This document shows positions 1 through 58,937 of a stretch of DNA of 64,000 nucleotides, piece by piece. The stretch comes from Podarcis liolepis. Taxonomy: Eukaryota. The notes below the pieces were generated by a model that saw nothing but the letters and a program-made list of their open reading frames with translations, was not told the DNA's origin and searched no databases. A program made the translations under genes and the position numbers. The stretch lies in NCBI GenBank assembly GCA_965112155.1, contig OZ218106.1; one strand, 5' to 3'. The stretch's first letter is position 1. Every line of letters starts with the position of its first letter.

Positions 1-321
1 ACTCATAACTCCAAGAGTTTAAATATAGACATGTTGCTTTAGAATTTTGGCTGTGTGTTTGAAAGCCACATACTGTACTGCAGGCCAGCCCTGCTTTTGT
101 GTGGTGCTCCATGCCAAACTTGTGTATATTGGAAATGGGCTGGTTTCCAACAGCCCTATAAAAAGAAAGGTCCTTAATGTAGCAGCTAGTCCTTTGAGGA
201 AAGGTTGAAAGAAGTGTGAGGCAAATGCTGTGAATGGGTTCAAGTAAGCCAAATGTCTGAGTGATAAGAATCTTGCCATGCTCATAGTATCTCATAAGTT
301 TTTGCCAACTTTATAAAATAA

Positions 322-764
322 TCATGGAACTTTGAAGTGTCAGGCATAGCCCTACTGGCTTTAGCCCAAACGTAGCAGAGTTTTCCTGCACAGCGAGGAA
401 GCTAGTTGCAGCGGTAATGACTAGTCAGCTAGACTCAGAAGAACTATTTACAGGATTTATTAAAAAAGGGAAAAATAAAACCAGCAGAGTTTCTGCATAC
501 AAATAAAAGCAAAATAAATCCTCTCTTTCTCTCTCTCAAAACCATACACAGCACTTCTAACTCCTAACACACCTCACACCAAACTGAGCTAACAATCCCT
601 TGATAACAGAGTTGAGTGCTGGTCGTTAACCAATCAGAGTGAGTAGTTTCTAGGTCAAGCAGACCTGGGCTTTCTGCCAAGAGTAAATTGACACCAGCTT
701 GAGTTAATTGGTGAAGCTAGAATCTGCAAGTTTCCCACGAGAACCAATTAACAGAAACTGAACA
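322..764 (-). repeat. 3' LTR of the Copia element (443 bp)
   Basis: Direct repeat of 5016-5458; AATAAA (minus strand) at 456-461; preceded by the PPT and followed by TSD AATAA. Confidence 0.97.
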
Positions 765-771
765 CCCCCTC
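765..771 (-). other. Polypurine tract GAGGGGG
   Basis: Directly precedes the TG of the 3' LTR; typical Copia PPT ending. Confidence 0.85.
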
Positions 772-817
772 ACAGATTCTGCTGAACAATTAACTCCAAA
801 TACACCTATGTAGGAGA

Positions 818-3800
818 TTATTTTTCCAGCAAACCTAAACCCTTGCACATTCGCTTGTTCTTTATCTTTGCCAATGGTTTAGTTAACACATCTGCTACAT
901 TTTCTTCACTTGATACATAAGTACAGGTGATTACATTGTCTTGTACACAGCAACATACATTTTGGTATTTTACAGAGATATGTTTGGAACGCGATTTGAA
1001 GCCCTCTGTTTTACTTAAGGTTATACAAGCTTGATTATCAATGTAAACTTGTACTGGTTCTCCATAATTTACATTTAAATCTGCTAACAAATGCTTGAAA
1101 TAAATCACCTCGTTGCACAATTCACTCAATGCGGCGTACTCTGATTCCGTTGATGACACACTTACAACGTCTTGCTTGCGTGACCGCCAGCTGATTAAAG
1201 CTCCACCGACCGTTATGACTAGTCCTGTGACAGATTTTCTATCTGGCAAATTTCCCCAGTCACTATCACAGTAGCAACTCAACATTTCGTCCTCGGAAGA
1301 ATTTAATTGTAACATATAGCCAATTGTCTGTTTGAGATACCTCAGAACTTGTTTTACCCCTTTCCAGGCATTTAGTGTGGGTTTTGAGACCAATCTACTT
1401 AATATGCCTACTGCGTAGCTAATATCAGGTCTGGACCACTGTGCTAAATACAATAAACTTCCAATTACAGAGTGATATACATCAGGATGTTCAAATTCAG
1501 GACTCTCATCTATGTGAAGTGTTTTTATGAAACCTGGATCCATAGGCACCACTGCCCCTTTGCAATCCTGCATCCTGTACGTAGTCAGTAGTTGTTTAAC
1601 TTTGTTCTGCTGACTAATTAGGCAGCTGCCATCTTGGGCCCAGCACACTTCCAACCCTAGATATGTCCTAACCGGGCCTAAGTCTTTCATTTTGAACTTA
1701 CTGGACAATTGCTTGGCAAACCTTTTAGTTTGTTTATCTGTTTTGCAGGCATACAAAACATCATCTACATAAATCAGACAAAATTCTTGATCACTGCCTG
1801 TACCACGTACATAAACACAATTGTCAGCTGTACTCTGCTTGAAACCAAATGACACTAAGGCCTCATGGAAACATTTGTTCCAAGATCTTGCAGCCTGTTT
1901 GAGACCATATAGAGCTTTGTTTAATTTCAACACTCTATTGGAACCTGTCTCATAACCAGGCGGTTCGGCTAGATACAGGTCTTCTGATATTGATGCATGT
2001 AAATATGCAGTCTGAATGTCAAAATGGTTTAACAGGAGTTTTCTCTTTGCTCCAAGCGTTAAAATCAGCCTTACACTGTCCCCCTTAGCAGTAGGGGAAA
2101 AAGTTTCGTCATAATCTTTTCCAGGCCTCTGAGAATATCCTTGAGCCACTAAACGAGCTTTGTATTTGTACTCTCCTGTCACCAGAGGTTTAAGTTTGTA
2201 CACCCACCTGCAGCCTACAATCTTTGCCCCCTCAGGCGCTGCTACTGGTGTAAAAACCTTGTGCTCATTCAGAGAGGACATCTCTTCCTCCATTGCCTGT
2301 TTCCAGCACTCTGCCTCCTCTTTTGGTAACTTTAACACCTCCTGAAAACTCTTGGGTTCTGCAATTACACTAAACACGTTTGCAGTATCTGGAGAAAAAC
2401 GCACCGGAGGCACTCCTTTGTTTTGTCTTTTAGATCTTCTGGGAGAAAATTTTTCTTCTGACCCACTTTCCTCCTCAGAACTACGACCTCTCTTTTGTTG
2501 CTTAGCAACTGGTCTCTGGCTAATTCCACTTTCTTGAGAGCTCTTATCTGAACTTTCCTCCCCCTCAGACTCTGATTCTCTGTGTCTACCTTCAGAGTCA
2601 TGGAGCTCCTGGGAAGGTTCAAACCAAACCTCAGTATTGGCATGTAGTCTCTCCCAGCCACTATGTTCACAAAAACTGGCATTCCTGGAGATCACAATGC
2701 CATTTGTCCCTTCAGCAAAGCGGAAACCTTTTCCCAGCTCCTGGTAACCCACAAACACTAACTGTTTGGTCTTAGGATCTCCCTTTTTCCTCATTTGTTT
2801 CGGAATTAATACCCAGGCTTTTGATCCAAACACATGCAAATGGTCAATTTTAGGTTTTTTCTGAAACAATTTAAAGTACGGAGTTGTACCTATTGTTTGA
2901 TGAAAGAGCCTATTTTGGAGATAACACGCGGTGAGCATGCTCTCCCCCCAATAAGACATGGGCAAATCAGCATCAGCAAGCATGGCAAACATCATATCTT
3001 GTAAAGATCTGTTTTTTCGCTCTGCAACGCCATTCTCCTCTGGGGAAAAAACGTTCGTTTTTCTATGCCCAATGCCACGCTTTTGTAACCAATCTTTAAA
3101 GGCATTTGACATAAATTCACCACCTCTGTCCGTCTGTATCCTTTTGAGTTTAATGGACAGAAATCTTTCCACAGATGCCACCCAGCCTTTAAACTTAGTG
3201 AACACGTCACCCTTATTCTTCATGGGAAAAACCCAAGAATAACGCGTGGCGTCATCCACAATTGTTAGTGAAAAACGCGATCCACCCCTGCTTACAGCAA
3301 ATGGACCAATTACGTCCATGTGAACCAGCTGTAGCGGTGACTCACTAACTCTGTCACTTCTGGGGTAAGAGACTCTGTGGGTTTTAACCTTTTTACAGAC
3401 ATTACAATCAAGGTACTTGTTACAACTCTTTAAATTACCCCCATCAGCCAATTCAGACATTTTTAGTACACTTTTCCAGCAGGCATGCCCCATTTTCCTA
3501 TGCAATAAGTGCACACAGTTGTCATGTATAGCTTTGTTATTCACTGCAGGCTGAGATTTACTGACTACTGCTGCAACTTGAGATCCTGCTTTAAGCCAAA
3601 ACAAGCCTCCCTCTGACTTAGCAGTGCCTAAAATCTCACCAGCCTTCTTAATAATGCAACTGTCTCCTTCAAAATACACTTTAAACCCAGCTTTTAGCAA
3701 ACAATCTACAGACATCAGATTGCTCCTTAATGACGGCACACAAAGTACATTTTGCAGGCATTCACGAAGACAAGGAACAAAAACTGCACCCCCCGAAATC

Positions 3801-4780
3801 ACTTCGGAAGTACTTCCGTCTGCTAGAGCCACCTGGCTGCGCTGTGCTGAGTTCTTGGAAACAAATAATTCATCTGAATTCACGATGTGGCGAGATGCTC
3901 CCGAATCGACCACCCAGACCGCTTGTTTCTCATCAGCAATCTTGACCTCGCCGGTCACCAGCTGAGCCGACTGTTTTCGTTTGAAGAATTTCTTTTTACG
4001 CTGCTGCTGCTGCTGATCTCGTCTCTGCTCCTGCACCGGCAACTGAGACTTGACCAACTCCGGACATTGTCGTTTTAGATGCGCTGAAGACCCACATCGG
4101 AAACAACGCCTAACAGCAAACGCTGACTCTACACCAGTACGCTGCTTTTGCTTCACCTCTGGCACGGCATGAGAACTCCTTCCAAACCGCCCACCTGTAG
4201 AAGCCTCTGCAGCCAACGATCTTTCTTGCCTCTTCTGCCATTCTTCAATCAAACGCCCAGTAACGTAACTGACTGATAAATCACGCTCCTGTATGCCTTC
4301 TAGAGACAAAACTAAATTATCCCAGCTTTCCGGGAGAGAACTCAAAATAATAGCCACCTTCTCCTGCTGGTCTAGTGCACAGTCTCTTTCCTGTAGCGCA
4401 GAAAACTTTAACTGTAAACTGTGTAGGTGTTCTTGCATTGTAACCCCAGGCTGTAACATTGCCTTGTACAATGCCTTGCGAATGAACAGCTTGGAAACCG
4501 CTGTCTCACGCACATGGAGTTCTTTAAGTGCTTGCCACACACCTCTAGCTGTCTTGATTCCCCTCACATACGGCAACTGGGAATCTTCCAGCCCCAAGAC
4601 AATTGTGGCCCTTGCTCTTTGGTCTTTATCGAGGTCTTCATCATCAGGCTTCGCAGGAAACTTACTCACCACTTGCCAGAGACGATCCCTCTGCAGCACT
4701 GCCTGCATGCGTTCCGACCACAGCAAGTAATTGGAGTCATTCAGACGCTCAAAAGCCATCTGAACTGGTTGTGAGGCCAT
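818..4780 (-). CDS. Copia Gag-Pol polyprotein, 1320 aa, uninterrupted
   Basis: Copia gag N-terminus (LNDSNYLLWSERM); CCHC zinc knuckle CFRCGSSAHLKRQC (4064-4105); aspartic protease VVDSGAS (DSG at 3899-3907); integrase HHCC (HRKMGH...CNVC) and D-D-E (HMDVIG, TDRGGEF, ENGVAER); GKGF (GKGY-type) motif; RT motifs YKARLVAQG, LYGLKQA and YVDD (1760-1771); RNase H YCDSDW...SEY...IDNQ...ADVLTK. Confidence 0.98.
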   Translation of the reverse strand: MASQPVQMAFERLNDSNYLLWSERMQAVLQRDRLWQVVSKFPAKPDDEDLDKDQRARATIVLGLEDSQLPYVRGIKTARGVWQALKELHVRETAVSKLFIRKALYKAMLQPGVTMQEHLHSLQLKFSALQERDCALDQQEKVAIILSSLPESWDNLVLSLEGIQERDLSVSYVTGRLIEEWQKRQERSLAAEASTGGRFGRSSHAVPEVKQKQRTGVESAFAVRRCFRCGSSAHLKRQCPELVKSQLPVQEQRRDQQQQQRKKKFFKRKQSAQLVTGEVKIADEKQAVWVVDSGASRHIVNSDELFVSKNSAQRSQVALADGSTSEVISGGAVFVPCLRECLQNVLCVPSLRSNLMSVDCLLKAGFKVYFEGDSCIIKKAGEILGTAKSEGGLFWLKAGSQVAAVVSKSQPAVNNKAIHDNCVHLLHRKMGHACWKSVLKMSELADGGNLKSCNKYLDCNVCKKVKTHRVSYPRSDRVSESPLQLVHMDVIGPFAVSRGGSRFSLTIVDDATRYSWVFPMKNKGDVFTKFKGWVASVERFLSIKLKRIQTDRGGEFMSNAFKDWLQKRGIGHRKTNVFSPEENGVAERKNRSLQDMMFAMLADADLPMSYWGESMLTACYLQNRLFHQTIGTTPYFKLFQKKPKIDHLHVFGSKAWVLIPKQMRKKGDPKTKQLVFVGYQELGKGFRFAEGTNGIVISRNASFCEHSGWERLHANTEVWFEPSQELHDSEGRHRESESEGEESSDKSSQESGISQRPVAKQQKRGRSSEEESGSEEKFSPRRSKRQNKGVPPVRFSPDTANVFSVIAEPKSFQEVLKLPKEEAECWKQAMEEEMSSLNEHKVFTPVAAPEGAKIVGCRWVYKLKPLVTGEYKYKARLVAQGYSQRPGKDYDETFSPTAKGDSVRLILTLGAKRKLLLNHFDIQTAYLHASISEDLYLAEPPGYETGSNRVLKLNKALYGLKQAARSWNKCFHEALVSFGFKQSTADNCVYVRGTGSDQEFCLIYVDDVLYACKTDKQTKRFAKQLSSKFKMKDLGPVRTYLGLEVCWAQDGSCLISQQNKVKQLLTTYRMQDCKGAVVPMDPGFIKTLHIDESPEFEHPDVYHSVIGSLLYLAQWSRPDISYAVGILSRLVSKPTLNAWKGVKQVLRYLKQTIGYMLQLNSSEDEMLSCYCDSDWGNLPDRKSVTGLVITVGGALISWRSRKQDVVSVSSTESEYAALSELCNEVIYFKHLLADLNVNYGEPVQVYIDNQACITLSKTEGFKSRSKHISVKYQNVCCCVQDNVITCTYVSSEENVADVLTKPLAKIKNKRMCKGLGLLEK

Positions 4781-5005
4781 CTTGAGAGCGATGTCCCTGG
4801 AACCCGGAACCAGCTACTCACGACCACCGAGAGAGAGAACAGGAACCACAGCACCCAGCACTCACACGCTGCAGCTGTTGTCCTTGTGTCCGCTGCGTCA
4901 CCAGCTCACCACGGTCAGGAACCAGCCAGGAACAACAACCTCTGGAACTACTGGAACCAACGCCGTTGATGCTGACACCACCGCAACTCAGGCTGGCAGC
5001 ACAAT

Positions 5006-5015
5006 GCCCATAACC
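5006..5015 (-). other. Primer-binding site GGTTATGGGC, complementary to the anticodon arm (nt ~30-39) of initiator tRNA-Met
   Basis: Immediately abuts the 5' LTR end; matches the start of the Drosophila copia-type PBS (GGTTATGGGCCCAG) and is the reverse complement of tRNAiMet GCCCAUAACC. Confidence 0.88.
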
Positions 5016-5458
5016 TCATGGAACTTTGAAGTGTCAGGCATAGCCCTACTGGCTTTAGCCCAAACGTAGCAGAGTTTTCCTGCACAGCGAGGAAGCTAGT
5101 TGCAGCGGTAATGACTAGTCAGCTAGACTCAGAAGAACTATTTACAGGATTTATTAAAAAAGGGAAAAATAAAACCAGCAGAGTTTCTGCATACAAATAA
5201 AAGCAAAATAAATCCTCTCTTTCTCTCTCTCAAAACCATACACAGCACTTCTAACTCCTAACACACCTCACACCAAACTGAGCTAACAATCCCTTGATAA
5301 CAGAGTTGAGTGCTGGTCGTTAACCAATCAGAGTGAGTAGTTTCTAGGTCAAGCAGACCTGGGCTTTCTGCCAAGAGTAAATTGACACCAGCTTGAGTTA
5401 ATTGGTGAAGCTAGAATCTGCAAGTTTCCCACGAGAACCAATTAACAGAAACTGAACA
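5016..5458 (-). repeat. 5' LTR of the Copia element (443 bp, TGTTCAG...CCATGA)
   Basis: Direct repeat of 322-764 with no differences seen by eye; AATAAA on the minus strand at 5150-5155; bounded by the TSD and PBS. Confidence 0.97.
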
Positions 5459-5664
5459 AATAATGCTATAAATAATACAATCAATAGTTTTTTTGGGGGG
5501 CGGCTTATTTTTTTAATGCAACTATATGTGAAGTACTTCAATTTGAAAGTAGATTTCCCATCCTGTACTCAAATTTCATCAGAAAAGACAGCAATATGTA
5601 AGGCACAAAACAGTGCCTAGGATAAATTGTTCTCACCATGGAACTATTATACCGTTGTATACAG

Positions 5665-6098
5665 CAGGGATGTCCAACCAGTCGATCGGAATTGACTGCT
5701 CAATCCCCGGGAGGTTTCTGTCGATCACTGTCGATCGCGTGGTCTTTTTCCTTTGCGGAGGCAAAACAGCGCCTGGCCCCGCCCCCTCTCCCCGCCCTTC
5801 ATTCGCACATGACCGCTAGAACAGAAGACAGAGCTTTTTCTGTGAGACTGATTGTTTCCTGAGCATTTTTTTGGGTGAGCGACTTTCCCCTTTCCCCCTT
5901 ATAGATAGCTGAACATTTCTGTCTCTCCTCCCTAAAAAACCTCAACTACTTAGATCTGAACCCCCAAAAGGTGAAGAACTTTGACTTTCCTCCCTAAAAA
6001 CAACAACTGTGACCTGAACCCCTAAAAAGGGGGGTAGATCACTGCCAGTTTTTTATTCTGTGAGTAAATCGCAGTCTCTTGGGATTTGGACATCCCTG
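5665..6098. mobile_element. Non-autonomous hAT (Charlie-like) DNA transposon / MITE, 434 bp
   Basis: 13-bp perfect TIRs CAGGGATGTCCAA...TTGGACATCCCTG; 8-bp TSD GTATACAG at 5657-5664 and 6099-6106; CpG-rich subterminal GTCGATC repeats. Confidence 0.92.
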
Positions 6099-7449
6099 GT
6101 ATACAGCGTTGCACTGAGGGTGGTATATACATTTCCTTCCAGATACACTCACGTGTATCTCCCCACCCACCACAATTTTATATAGGCCTGGTCTGTTACA
6201 GAGGATTTTGACAAACACATAGATAGGAATTTTGAATAGATTAATAAACCTATTCCTAGATTTCTTGTCCCTAAATGGTTTGGATTCCTGCACATAAACT
6301 TACCTTATTGTCTTGTGGTTACAAAAGTCTTTTCACACATCCAGTGACTGTGTGAAGAGAAGCAAATGGGATTATACATTGCTGTCCCATTTCTGACCTC
6401 CAAATATTCACCTGAAGATCTGAATAGGGCCTATATATGCACAAGTTGTATGTATACAGGCTGTGTGTGCATGGCTGAGGACTTTTCCCAGGCTTCTGGT
6501 CATGTTGAGAGGCATGTTGTATCAACACAAACTCTTCTCAAGACCCCTTTTCAGGCATTATTGGAACTTGTAGGTGAAGGCTGGATCATATGTGGATGAT
6601 GTCCACACATATAAGTCTGTAAGAGCCCCGGCATCTACAGTTGCACATGCAGTCAGGCGTCTTGCTTTTCCAGGGTTTTCAGTTGCATGAAGAGAGCTGT
6701 CCAGGTGCATAGTTTATCACACTCAGGGGCTCTTTCAGACCTTATAGTGAACACATGGAAGATGGACATCCACAATCCTGCAAACACACCCTCCACGCAT
6801 TCAGGTACAAGCTGTCTTTACACTCGTACCCTGTGTTCCCTGGTTGATTTGTATAGCTCAGCTACTGTGCACATACCCTACAATTGTTGAACATCAAGCT
6901 CAACTGCTTGTATATATATTATGGGTGGGGAAATATTTTGTAGTGCAGGGTCCACAGTCCCCTCAATGCAACCTGGAGGAAGGGAACAGAGGTAAAAGGC
7001 AGCACAATTAATGTTGATTTTATCATTGCATAGCAGGCTAGGTCTACATACACTCACACAGCTTCCTCTATTCTCCAAATAGCAAGCAAAGTGGCATTGT
7101 CAAAGTTCATGTACATATTCCAGCCAGGTCAAAACATTCAAGGAAGGTGAAAGCAGGGCCAGAGAGGAGTGTGGTCTGGGAAAAGAAGGCCTTGGAAGGG
7201 TTGTGATTACCACATACAAAGGACTTGGGCACCTCTGCTATACACACTAAGTGCTACTGGACCTAGTGGGGCTTATGTCCAAGTCAACATGCATGTAGGC
7301 TGGAGATGCAAGTTTCTGGAGTGATTCAAAGAGCATCTACAAAAGGACTTCTCTCTCTGCCACCTGTACAACTGCTTGCTGAAGGTAAGTCCCCAGGGTA
7401 TCCGAGGGCCTCATCCAGGGTGCTTTGGCCTTCACAGCTGTAGCCACCC

Positions 7450-58184: not shown

Positions 58185-58904
58185 TTATTTATACCTCGCC
58201 CATCTGGCTGGGCTTCCCCAGCCACTCTGGGCGGCTTCCAAAAAAATATTAAAATACTGTAATACATCAAACATTAATAGCTTCCCTAAACAGGGCTGCC
58301 TTCAGATGTCTTCTAAAAGTCTGGTAGTTGTTGTTATCTTTGACATCTGGTGGGAGGGCATTCCACAGGGCAGGTGCCACTACCGAGAAGGCCCTCTGCC
58401 TGGTTCCCTGTAACTTGGCTTCTCGCAGCGAGGGAACCGCCAGAAGGTCCTCGGTGCTGGACCTCAGTGTCTGGGTAGAACGATGGGGGTGGAGACGCTC
58501 CTTCAGATATACTGGACTGAGGCCGTTTAGGGCTTTAAAGGTCAGCACCAACAATTTTAATTGTGTTCGGAAACGTACTGGGAGCCAATGTAGGTCTTTC
58601 AAGACCAGTGTTATATGGTCTCGGCAGCCGCTCCCAGTCACCAGTCTAGCTGCTGCATTCTGGATAAGTTGTAGTTTCCAGGTCACCTTCAAAGGTAGCC
58701 CCACGTAGAGCGCATTGCAGTAGTCCAAGTGGGAGATAACTAAAGCATGCACCACTCTGGCGAGGCAGTGTGCAGACAGATAGGGTCTCAGCCTGCGTAC
58801 CAGATGGAGCTGGTAGACAGCTGCCCTGGACACAGATTTGACCTGTGCCTCCATGGACAGCTGTGAGTCCAAAATGACTCCCAGGCTGTGCACCTGGTCC
58901 TTCA
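58136..58904 (-). mobile_element. Relatively young 5'-truncated L2 LINE with (TTA)n tail
   Basis: Uninterrupted 212-aa ORF2 C-terminus (58267-58905) with SLGVILDSQL, HALVISHLDYCNALYVGLP, LQLIQNAAARLV, HITLVLKDLHWLP and RAFSVVAPALWNALP; (AAT)16 tail at 58136-58183. Confidence 0.95.
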
Positions 58905-58937
58905 TGAATAATCATGAATGTGCAAAATACAGTAATG

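What the first reader, a model, noticed from the sequence alone, without database searches (positions are those of the whole stretch)
317..5463. Intact, apparently brand-new Ty1/Copia retrotransposon in an amniote (lizard) genome
Seen: LTRs of equal length (443 bp) with no mismatch found by eye, a perfect 5-bp TSD, an unbroken 1320-aa ORF with all catalytic residues (DSG, DDE, YVDD, RNase H acidic residues), PBS and PPT. Known: LTRs are identical at integration; Copia elements are essentially absent from mammals and birds and patchy in other amniotes. Inference: this is a currently or very recently active Copia lineage in a squamate, probably insertion-polymorphic, and a candidate for horizontal acquisition from an invertebrate or aquatic host.
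Basis: partly seen in the sequence, partly recalled or inferred. Interest (0 to 1): 0.78.

Follow-up and report, generated by a model that had tools for sequence, protein, structure and literature searches.

The report
Active lizard Copia with GA ends
This is an intact, young copy of a roughly 200-copy Copia jumping-gene family in a lizard, a kind of element already known to be common in lizards and snakes, but the family's ends read TG…GA instead of the usual TG…CA and it likely starts copying itself from half a tRNA held at a split binding site.

Summary
In detail: identical 443-bp LTRs, 5-bp TSD, intact 1,320-aa ORF, PBS and PPT. The copy is one of at least 208 in this (likely lacertid) genome; 13 of 19 sampled LTR pairs are identical and 12 of 19 ORFs whole; the site looks empty in 3 of 4 related-lizard runs. 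Recent activity is supported. The surprise and the horizontal-transfer idea are not: Copia is published in 23 of 24 squamates, this genome holds about a dozen other Copia-type families, the RT tree nests the element among squamate elements (100/99), and no named protein exceeds 43% identity. (1) The family ends TG…GA (208 GA, 0 CA junctions), with the TSD directly against the GA; its sister family alternates CA/TA. This end is known in plants (Tos17); my searches found no vertebrate report. (2) The PBS matches only 10 nt of the tRNA-iMet anticodon arm (half-tRNA type), and a U5 box is predicted to pair with tRNA nt 1-22; unrelated LTRs in 3 of 10 other families carry such a box. New variant of a known kind; interest 0.42.

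The parts
317..321 (.). Target-site duplication, left copy (AATAA)
322..764 (-). 3' LTR, 443 bp, TG…GA; AATAAA poly(A) signal at LTR position 304 (window 456-461)
765..771 (-). Polypurine tract directly before the 3' LTR
   Evidence: same in 19 of 19 two-LTR copies (one with a G>A change)
818..4780 (-). Single gag-pol ORF, 1,320 aa: gag with CCHC knuckle, protease, integrase (HHCC, DDE, SH3), RT (YVDD), RNase H; no env
4781..5005 (-). 5' leader between PBS and gag start; holds a 5-nt match to tRNA-iMet nt 25-29 at 4992-4996, 9 nt behind the PBS core
5006..5015 (-). Primer-binding site, complementary to tRNA-iMet nt 30-39 (anticodon arm), no spacer to the LTR
   Evidence: invariant in 39 of 39 copies counted
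5016..5017 (-). Non-canonical right LTR end GA (also 322-323)
5068..5096 (-). U5 box predicted to pair with tRNA-iMet nt 1-22 (copy in 3' LTR at 374-402)
5016..5458 (-). 5' LTR, identical to the 3' LTR
5459..5463 (.). Target-site duplication, right copy (AATAA)

Best explanation
This is an intact, young insertion of a Ty1/Copia retrotransposon family with at least 208 copies in a lizard genome, likely inherited within squamates rather than newly acquired, whose LTRs end TG…GA and which likely primes reverse transcription with the 5' half of initiator tRNA-Met held at a split site. Shown: structure, copy number, near-zero LTR divergence, purifying selection, family-wide GA end with the 5-bp TSD directly against it, a 10-nt PBS matching tRNA nt 30-39. 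Inferred mechanism: one RNA is translated as a single polyprotein and packaged with a 39-nt tRNA-iMet half; the half's 3' end pairs with the PBS (10 bp, plus 5 bp after a 9-nt loop) and its 5' 22 nt pair with a U5 box 53-81 nt upstream, which makes up for the short PBS; with no spacer between LTR and PBS the cDNA ends flush in GA, and an integrase with relaxed reading of the penultimate base joins it with a 5-bp stagger. Deleted copies are mobilised in trans, and copies recombine during reverse transcription.
For: Copy number: 208 exact LTR-PBS junctions, 497 LTR-end matches, 150 of 150 scored RT hits at 98-100%. Youth: in 20 copies picked from the junction list, 19 had two LTRs, 13 of 19 pairs identical, 4 substitutions in 8,429 sites, 12 of 19 full ORFs, 18 of 19 matching TSDs; similar in the 20 best-LTR-hit copies (14 of 19 identical, 11 of 19 full ORFs). 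pN/pS 0.13 over 12 intact copies. Site apparently empty in X1, X3, X10. Squamate nesting: 5-row clade with three other own-genome families and a corn-snake element 100/99, 7-row squamate clade 99/95. GA end: 208 GA, 1 TA, 1 AA, 0 CA; 38 of 38 LTRs; a truncated copy (L050) keeps only 69 nt of its right LTR yet has a matching TSD against the GA. Sister family: 16 CA and 7 TA of 23 junctions. Primer: no match of 8 nt or more to the tRNA 3' end near the LTR; U5 box is the best site for tRNA nt 1-24 in the element (-32.6 vs next -24.0 kcal/mol), 1 of 500 LTR shuffles reach it, four control tRNAs show nothing; 5 of 22 family-by-side tests reach 2 of 200 or better, 4 of them in U5 of non-homologous LTRs; other families copy 30 nt or nearly all 39 nt of the tRNA half as PBS.
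Against: No expression, cDNA or primer molecule was seen. The U5 box was found post hoc, is absent in 7 of the 11 families tested upstream including the sister family, is no more conserved than the rest of U5 (4 of 29 variable sites vs 4 of 52 and 9 of 62), and partly folds as a local hairpin in the free RNA; an unconstrained cofold paired only tRNA nt 1-11. The integrase link is weak: the loop glutamate shared with the sister family also occurs in 16 of 97 database Copia proteins of unknown ends. Outgroups in the tree were best hits, many unnamed, the squamate rows are long-branched, and no one-clade test was run. X2's contig stops exactly at the junction, so 1 of 4 runs is inconclusive, and the sequence beyond the junction in the other three was not seen.
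Confidence: 0.8

Rival explanations
1. The family was recently acquired by horizontal transfer from an invertebrate or aquatic host and is now invading a naive lizard genome.
For: No intermediate relatives between 55% and 98% RT-RNaseH identity were seen in the genome sample or the database; one unnamed protein, P0121, is 98% identical and its source is unknown; named invertebrate neighbours include Anopheles elements.
Against: Tree places it with squamate elements; best non-family proteins at most 43%; within-family pS 5.3% and LTRs 86-99% identical to the window's show a family older than the burst; it is present in four related organism labels, 10 studies; only 30 of 983 canonical PBS sites were examined, so closer sister families may simply be unsampled.
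Confidence: 0.07
2. The family is squamate-resident but has moved recently between close lizard species by hybridisation or lizard-to-lizard transfer.
For: Element contigs in organism C differ from the window copy by about 0.9%, the same as in organism A (0.8%), although C's flank is 3.6% diverged and A's 1.5%.
Against: A star-like family under purifying selection with pS 5.3% that radiated before these species split predicts the same shared centre.
Confidence: 0.15
3. The element is as described, but the U5 box is a local hairpin or chance match and priming rests on the 10+5-nt PBS alone.
For: Box not more conserved than neighbouring U5; local hairpin in the fold; absent in most families. From recall, not read here: for yeast Ty5 little outside the anticodon arm mattered.
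Against: Recurrence in four non-homologous LTRs at 0-2 of 200 shuffles, specificity for tRNA-iMet, and all 40 copies keep -27.5 kcal/mol or better.
Confidence: 0.35
4. The identical LTRs come from assembly collapse or gene conversion in an old copy.
For: Repeats can be homogenised in assemblies (general knowledge).
Against: Each copy's two LTRs share private variants that differ between copies by 1-14%, with unique TSDs; ORFs intact; site apparently empty in relatives.
Confidence: 0.02

Closest known systems
Mtanga-clade Copia of Lepidosauria (Klai et al. 2025, PMC11889832; tuatara genome, 10.1101/867069)
   Same: Copia domain order, lepidosaur host, hundreds of recent copies; the paper finds only Mtanga among Lepidosauria, with 44 clusters in Podarcis muralis and 20 in Zootoca.
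   Different: Clade membership could not be tested (reference FASTA and tree figures unreadable). In the sections and supplements I read, LTR termini and primer sites are not described.
Hemivirus elements: Drosophila copia and 1731, yeast Ty5, Osser (PMC1181622)
   Same: PBS matches the anticodon stem-loop of tRNA-iMet, i.e. half-tRNA priming.
   Different: Contiguous match is only 10 nt here against 14-15 nt in most other families of this genome; a U5 box is predicted to hold the tRNA 5' end; vertebrate host.
Rice Tos17 and plant TGGA Copia (10.1101/137141; lotus, PMC9804982: 820 TGGA copies)
   Same: TG…GA termini, 5-bp TSD, Copia, demonstrably mobile.
   Different: Animal host; LTR longer (443 bp vs 138 for Tos17 and 266 on average in lotus); no close relation to the plant rows in the tree (Tos17 itself not included); genic targeting not tested.
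Yeast Ty1 extended primer contacts, boxes 0, 1, 2.1 (PMC3592414)
   Same: A 10-nt PBS supplemented by further tRNA-iMet contacts.
   Different: Ty1 uses the tRNA 3' end and boxes lying in GAG; here the predicted partner is tRNA nt 1-22 and the box lies upstream in U5.
Copia insertion in corn-snake OCA2 (PMC4657000)
   Same: Recent, polymorphic Copia insertion in a squamate.
   Different: Different family; that insertion has a phenotype, none is known here.

Membership tests
Ty1/Copia (Pseudoviridae) | Domain order gag-PR-IN-RT-RNaseH with Copia-type RT | tested here: met
   Pfam gag_2 25-188, Pol_BBD 289-366, rve 481-577, RVT_2 841-1080; RNase H motifs after 1170
Ty1/Copia (Pseudoviridae) | Direct LTRs, PBS, PPT, 5-bp TSD | tested here: met
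Canonical TG…CA LTR retrotransposons | LTRs end in CA | tested here: not met
   208 GA, 0 CA junctions
Non-canonical TGGA Copia (Tos17 type of end) | TG…GA termini flanked directly by a 5-bp TSD | tested here: met
Non-canonical TGGA Copia (Tos17 type of end) | Preference for genic insertion sites | not tested
   No gene annotation at hand; no host gene found in 26 long window frames
Hemivirus (half-tRNA primers) | PBS complementary to the tRNA-iMet anticodon stem-loop, not the 3' acceptor end | tested here: met
   Match to nt 30-39 of the genome's own tRNA-iMet
Hemivirus (half-tRNA primers) | cDNA actually primed by a cleaved tRNA half | not testable with these tools
   Indirect only: other families carry 30-nt and near-39-nt copies of the half as PBS
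Mtanga clade | RT/RNaseH groups with Anopheles gambiae mtanga and the reference set | not testable with these tools
   Reference FASTA not readable; indirect: only Mtanga reported in Lepidosauria; element groups with squamate Copia
Env-bearing Copia (Sirevirus-like) | Extra env-like ORF between pol and 3' LTR | tested here: not met
   Only 53 nt between the stop (818) and the LTR (764)
Recent horizontal transfer from a non-squamate | Near-identical element in a distant taxon, or nesting inside its clade | tested here: not met
   At most 43% apart from unnamed P0121; squamate clade 100/99
Recent horizontal transfer from a non-squamate | Patchy distribution and dS below host genes across squamates | not testable with these tools
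   No related genomes are held for this window

The most novel reading that the evidence does not exclude
A vertebrate Copia lineage has dropped the near-universal CA end: its integrase reads only the terminal A (GA fixed in a 200-copy family, CA/TA alternating in the sister family, both sharing a changed active-site loop), and lizard Copia families have repeatedly evolved a U5 site that clamps the 5' end of a 39-nt tRNA-iMet half. Lizard germ cells would then make a defined tRNA-iMet half that serves as a reverse-transcription primer, in a living amniote system with segregating insertions.
Probability: 0.4. Interest if true: 0.65.

Novelty: new variant of a known kind. Interest (0 to 1): 0.42.

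Why it matters
What adds value: (1) a whole, currently amplifying animal family with TG…GA ends, next to a sister family that alternates CA/TA, is a natural series for asking how an LTR integrase reads its DNA end, and annotation runs restricted to TGCA would miss or mis-trim such families; (2) how the half-tRNA primer of Hemivirus-type elements is made and held is poorly understood, and this genome offers several families with different solutions (10-nt PBS plus U5 box, 14-15-nt PBS, 30-nt PBS, near-complete half), which makes the question testable in a vertebrate; (3) about 200 very young insertions are ready population markers and a likely mutagen in these lizards.

Tried and rejected
509-nt RT deletion as a spliced intron: rejected, the ends are not GT-AG and show 2-nt microhomology. 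Shared ancestral non-canonical end with the sister family: rejected as stated, since 16 of its 23 junctions are CA. Targeting of other elements' PBS: one nested insertion found, but only 1 of 3 copies with that TSD lies at a PBS. Other GA-ended families: 20 further GA+PBS-like sites examined, 1 belongs to this family, 3 share an upstream sequence but show no second LTR or Copia coding match, 16 look like chance. Expression: no RNA holder listed on record (six rows only guessed as RNA) and no RNA reads could be laid, so expression, strand and splicing stay open. A check for a repeat boundary left of the site gave no BLAST hits and the script stopped. Rfam scan of the window: 0 hits. Pfam on 26 long frames outside the element: no host gene. 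Earlier findings: none in three look-ups. Ke 1999 (Ty5) and Friant 1996 (Ty1) were not held. The 56-row tree finished only as a quick tree; the 29-row careful tree kept one row per own-genome family and dropped P0121, P0022 and 25 other rows.
Full report
Observation. The described element is present. Direct repeats at 322-764 and 5016-5458 are 443 bp with no mismatch and are flanked by AATAA at 317-321 and 5459-5463. The minus strand holds one 1,320-aa ORF at 818-4780 with Pfam gag, protease, integrase, SH3 and Copia-type RT domains in the order PR-IN-RT and intact catalytic motifs. There is no room for env (53 nt between stop and LTR). The window lies on contig C9 of a 1.574-Gb genome; a LINE frame elsewhere in the window has its best hits in Podarcis and Zootoca at 82-89%, so the host is most likely a lacertid lizard.

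Family size and age. An exact 21-nt LTR-PBS junction occurs 208 times and an LTR-end motif 497 times, which implies roughly 70-80 solo or unpaired LTRs (inference). All 150 scored hits of an RT search, out of 2,862 candidates, are 98-100% identical. Two samples of 20 copies were fetched. In the best-LTR-hit sample, 19 had two LTRs, 14 of 19 pairs were identical, 11 of 19 had a full ORF, and whole-copy distances were 1.0-2.1%. In the sample picked from the junction list, 19 had two LTRs, 13 of 19 pairs were identical, there were 4 substitutions in 8,429 sites, 12 of 19 had a full ORF and 18 of 19 a matching TSD. At an assumed 2-3e-9 substitutions per site per year this pools to about 0.1 My; the single window pair only bounds its age below about 1-1.7 My. 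Among 12 intact copies pS is 5.3%, pN 0.69%, ratio 0.13: the lineage has replicated under purifying selection for much longer than its present insertions have existed.

Related lizards. Twenty public runs from 10 studies and four organism labels hold over half of the stretch's words. In the four laid the right flank differs from the window by about 0.9% (X2), 1.5% (X1), 1.6% (X10) and 3.6% (X3), and the family is present at about 99% identity. In X1, X3 and X10 a single-copy contig follows the flank up to 5458 and runs on for about 650 letters that do not fit the LTR, which I read as the empty site; those letters were not shown. X2's contig stops at 5458 and is inconclusive. Polymorphism within the species was not shown.

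Origin. Two protein searches found nothing above 43% identity apart from one unnamed 98% protein, P0121. The genome holds 983 canonical Copia-type PBS sites; 30 examined fell into 11 groups, and 14 of 20 fetched representatives had two LTRs 98-100% identical, so young Copia families are the norm here. In the careful RT-RNaseH tree of 29 rows the element is sister to own-genome family L097 (55% identity, 96/85), inside a clade with L095, L099 and a corn-snake element (100/99) and a seven-row all-squamate clade (99/95); Anopheles, sea-spider, pseudoscorpion and plant rows fall outside (quick 56-row tree agrees). Limits: best-hit outgroups, long squamate branches, no one-clade test, no Mtanga reference. 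Literature agrees: PMC11889832 (abstract, parts 1, 2, 4 and 5 of the text, passages and supplement rows read) finds Copia in 23 of 24 squamates, only the Mtanga clade in Lepidosauria, and raises an old horizontal origin; the tuatara preprint reports over 1,140 full-length Mtanga-like copies (passages); Xenopus has 8 (PMC4131045, passages); a Copia insertion in OCA2 likely causes corn-snake amelanism (PMC4657000, passages). The unreadable FASTA, slide and picture supplements of PMC11889832 may contain this family.

Non-canonical end. The LTR reads TG…GA. All 30 LTR loci and all 38 LTRs end so; genome-wide the junction is GA 208 times, TA once, AA once and CA never. TSDs sit directly against the GA, including in L050, a truncated copy with only 69 nt of its right LTR, so GA is the end that integrase joins (inference from junctions). 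Six other families with two LTRs end in CA or nearly so; the sister family has 16 CA and 7 TA of 23 junctions, and L097 has TA on both LTRs with a matching TSD. Element and sister share the integrase loop FSPEEN; the first glutamate aligns with the foamy-virus glutamine of the YHPQS loop, which from recall lies beside the penultimate base pair of the viral end. This is only a lead: the same residue occurs in 16 of 97 fetched Copia proteins, and CA-ended lizard families have Q, A or W there. [quoted passage not shown] Searches listed no vertebrate case; the library is incomplete.

Priming. Against the genome's own tRNA-iMet the PBS matches nt 30-39 and not the 3' end: the half-tRNA mode of Hemiviruses (PMC1181622 passages). 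The contiguous match is 10 nt, with 5 more pairs after a 9-nt loop, against 14-15 nt in most other families. A U5 box at 5068-5096 is the best partner in the element for tRNA nt 1-24 (-32.6 vs next -24.0 kcal/mol); 1 of 500 whole-LTR shuffles and 3-5 of 500 U5 shuffles reach it, and Ser, Asn, Glu and Val tRNAs give no signal. In 11 families tested on both sides of the PBS, 4 have such a box upstream (0-2 of 200 shuffles) and 1 continues the match downstream; 6 have neither. One family's PBS copies tRNA nt 10-39, and locus L089 nearly the whole 39-nt half. All 40 copies of this family keep the predicted duplex at -27.5 kcal/mol or better, but the box is not more conserved than neighbouring U5 and can fold locally. 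Extra primer contacts are known for Ty1 (PMC3592414 passages); searches listed no U5 box for half-tRNA elements, but two key papers were not held. I put the box being functional at about 60%.

Verdict. A real, young, intact copy of an actively amplifying squamate-resident Copia family. Its presence in a lizard is already known in kind, and recent transfer from an invertebrate is unlikely. The family-wide TG…GA end and the split half-tRNA site make it a new variant of a known kind, of moderate interest (0.42).

Noticed in passing
L089 (G000:C1:1062373) and L091/L099/L106: PBS regions that copy much more of tRNA-iMet than usual: L089 holds nearly the whole 39-nt 5' half (no Copia coding match or second LTR found in 7 kb); one young family holds nt 10-39, ending just before nt 9 where a modified G that blocks RT is recalled.
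   Followed up: partly
L127/L128 (G000:C9:23899410-23909248): A tandem dimer of this family (LTR-internal-LTR-internal-LTR) sits inside the PBS of another Copia family, duplicating the PBS's first five bases as TSD; a second tandem array lies at C2:83.77 Mb.
   Followed up: partly
L031, L037, L045, L048, L156, L157 (window-equivalent 1686-2196): A subfamily with the same 509-nt deletion in RT occurs on different haplotypes with mostly identical LTRs (4 of 19 and 2 of 19 sampled) and is also seen in run X10: a non-autonomous variant spread in trans, with recombination between copies.
   Followed up: partly
L046 and L050: Template-switch scars: the end of L046's 5' LTR is replaced by sequence from the gag start; L050 jumps from gag to U5 at a short shared word and is integrated with a normal TSD.
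   Followed up: partly
L088 (G000:C1:300200-308200): A young Copia family (LTRs 99.8% identical) that falls outside the squamate clade, among unnamed database elements (95/90), and is nearly identical to unnamed protein P0022; a better candidate for separate, possibly horizontal, acquisition than the element in the finding.
   Followed up: no
L129, L130, L131: Three loci share an upstream sequence ending in GA before a 10-nt PBS-like word but show no second LTR or Copia coding match; possibly an old or non-coding repeat.
   Followed up: partly
window 58267-58905 (minus): Fragment of a LINE reverse-transcriptase ORF whose best hits are lacertid.
   Followed up: partly
window about 5680-6100: High-copy short repeat right of the element (depth far above the flank in all four runs), with short internal direct repeats.
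   Followed up: no
window 5010-5060 (minus): An ATG in U5 opens a 17-codon frame across the PBS, in frame with gag but stopped before it.
   Followed up: no
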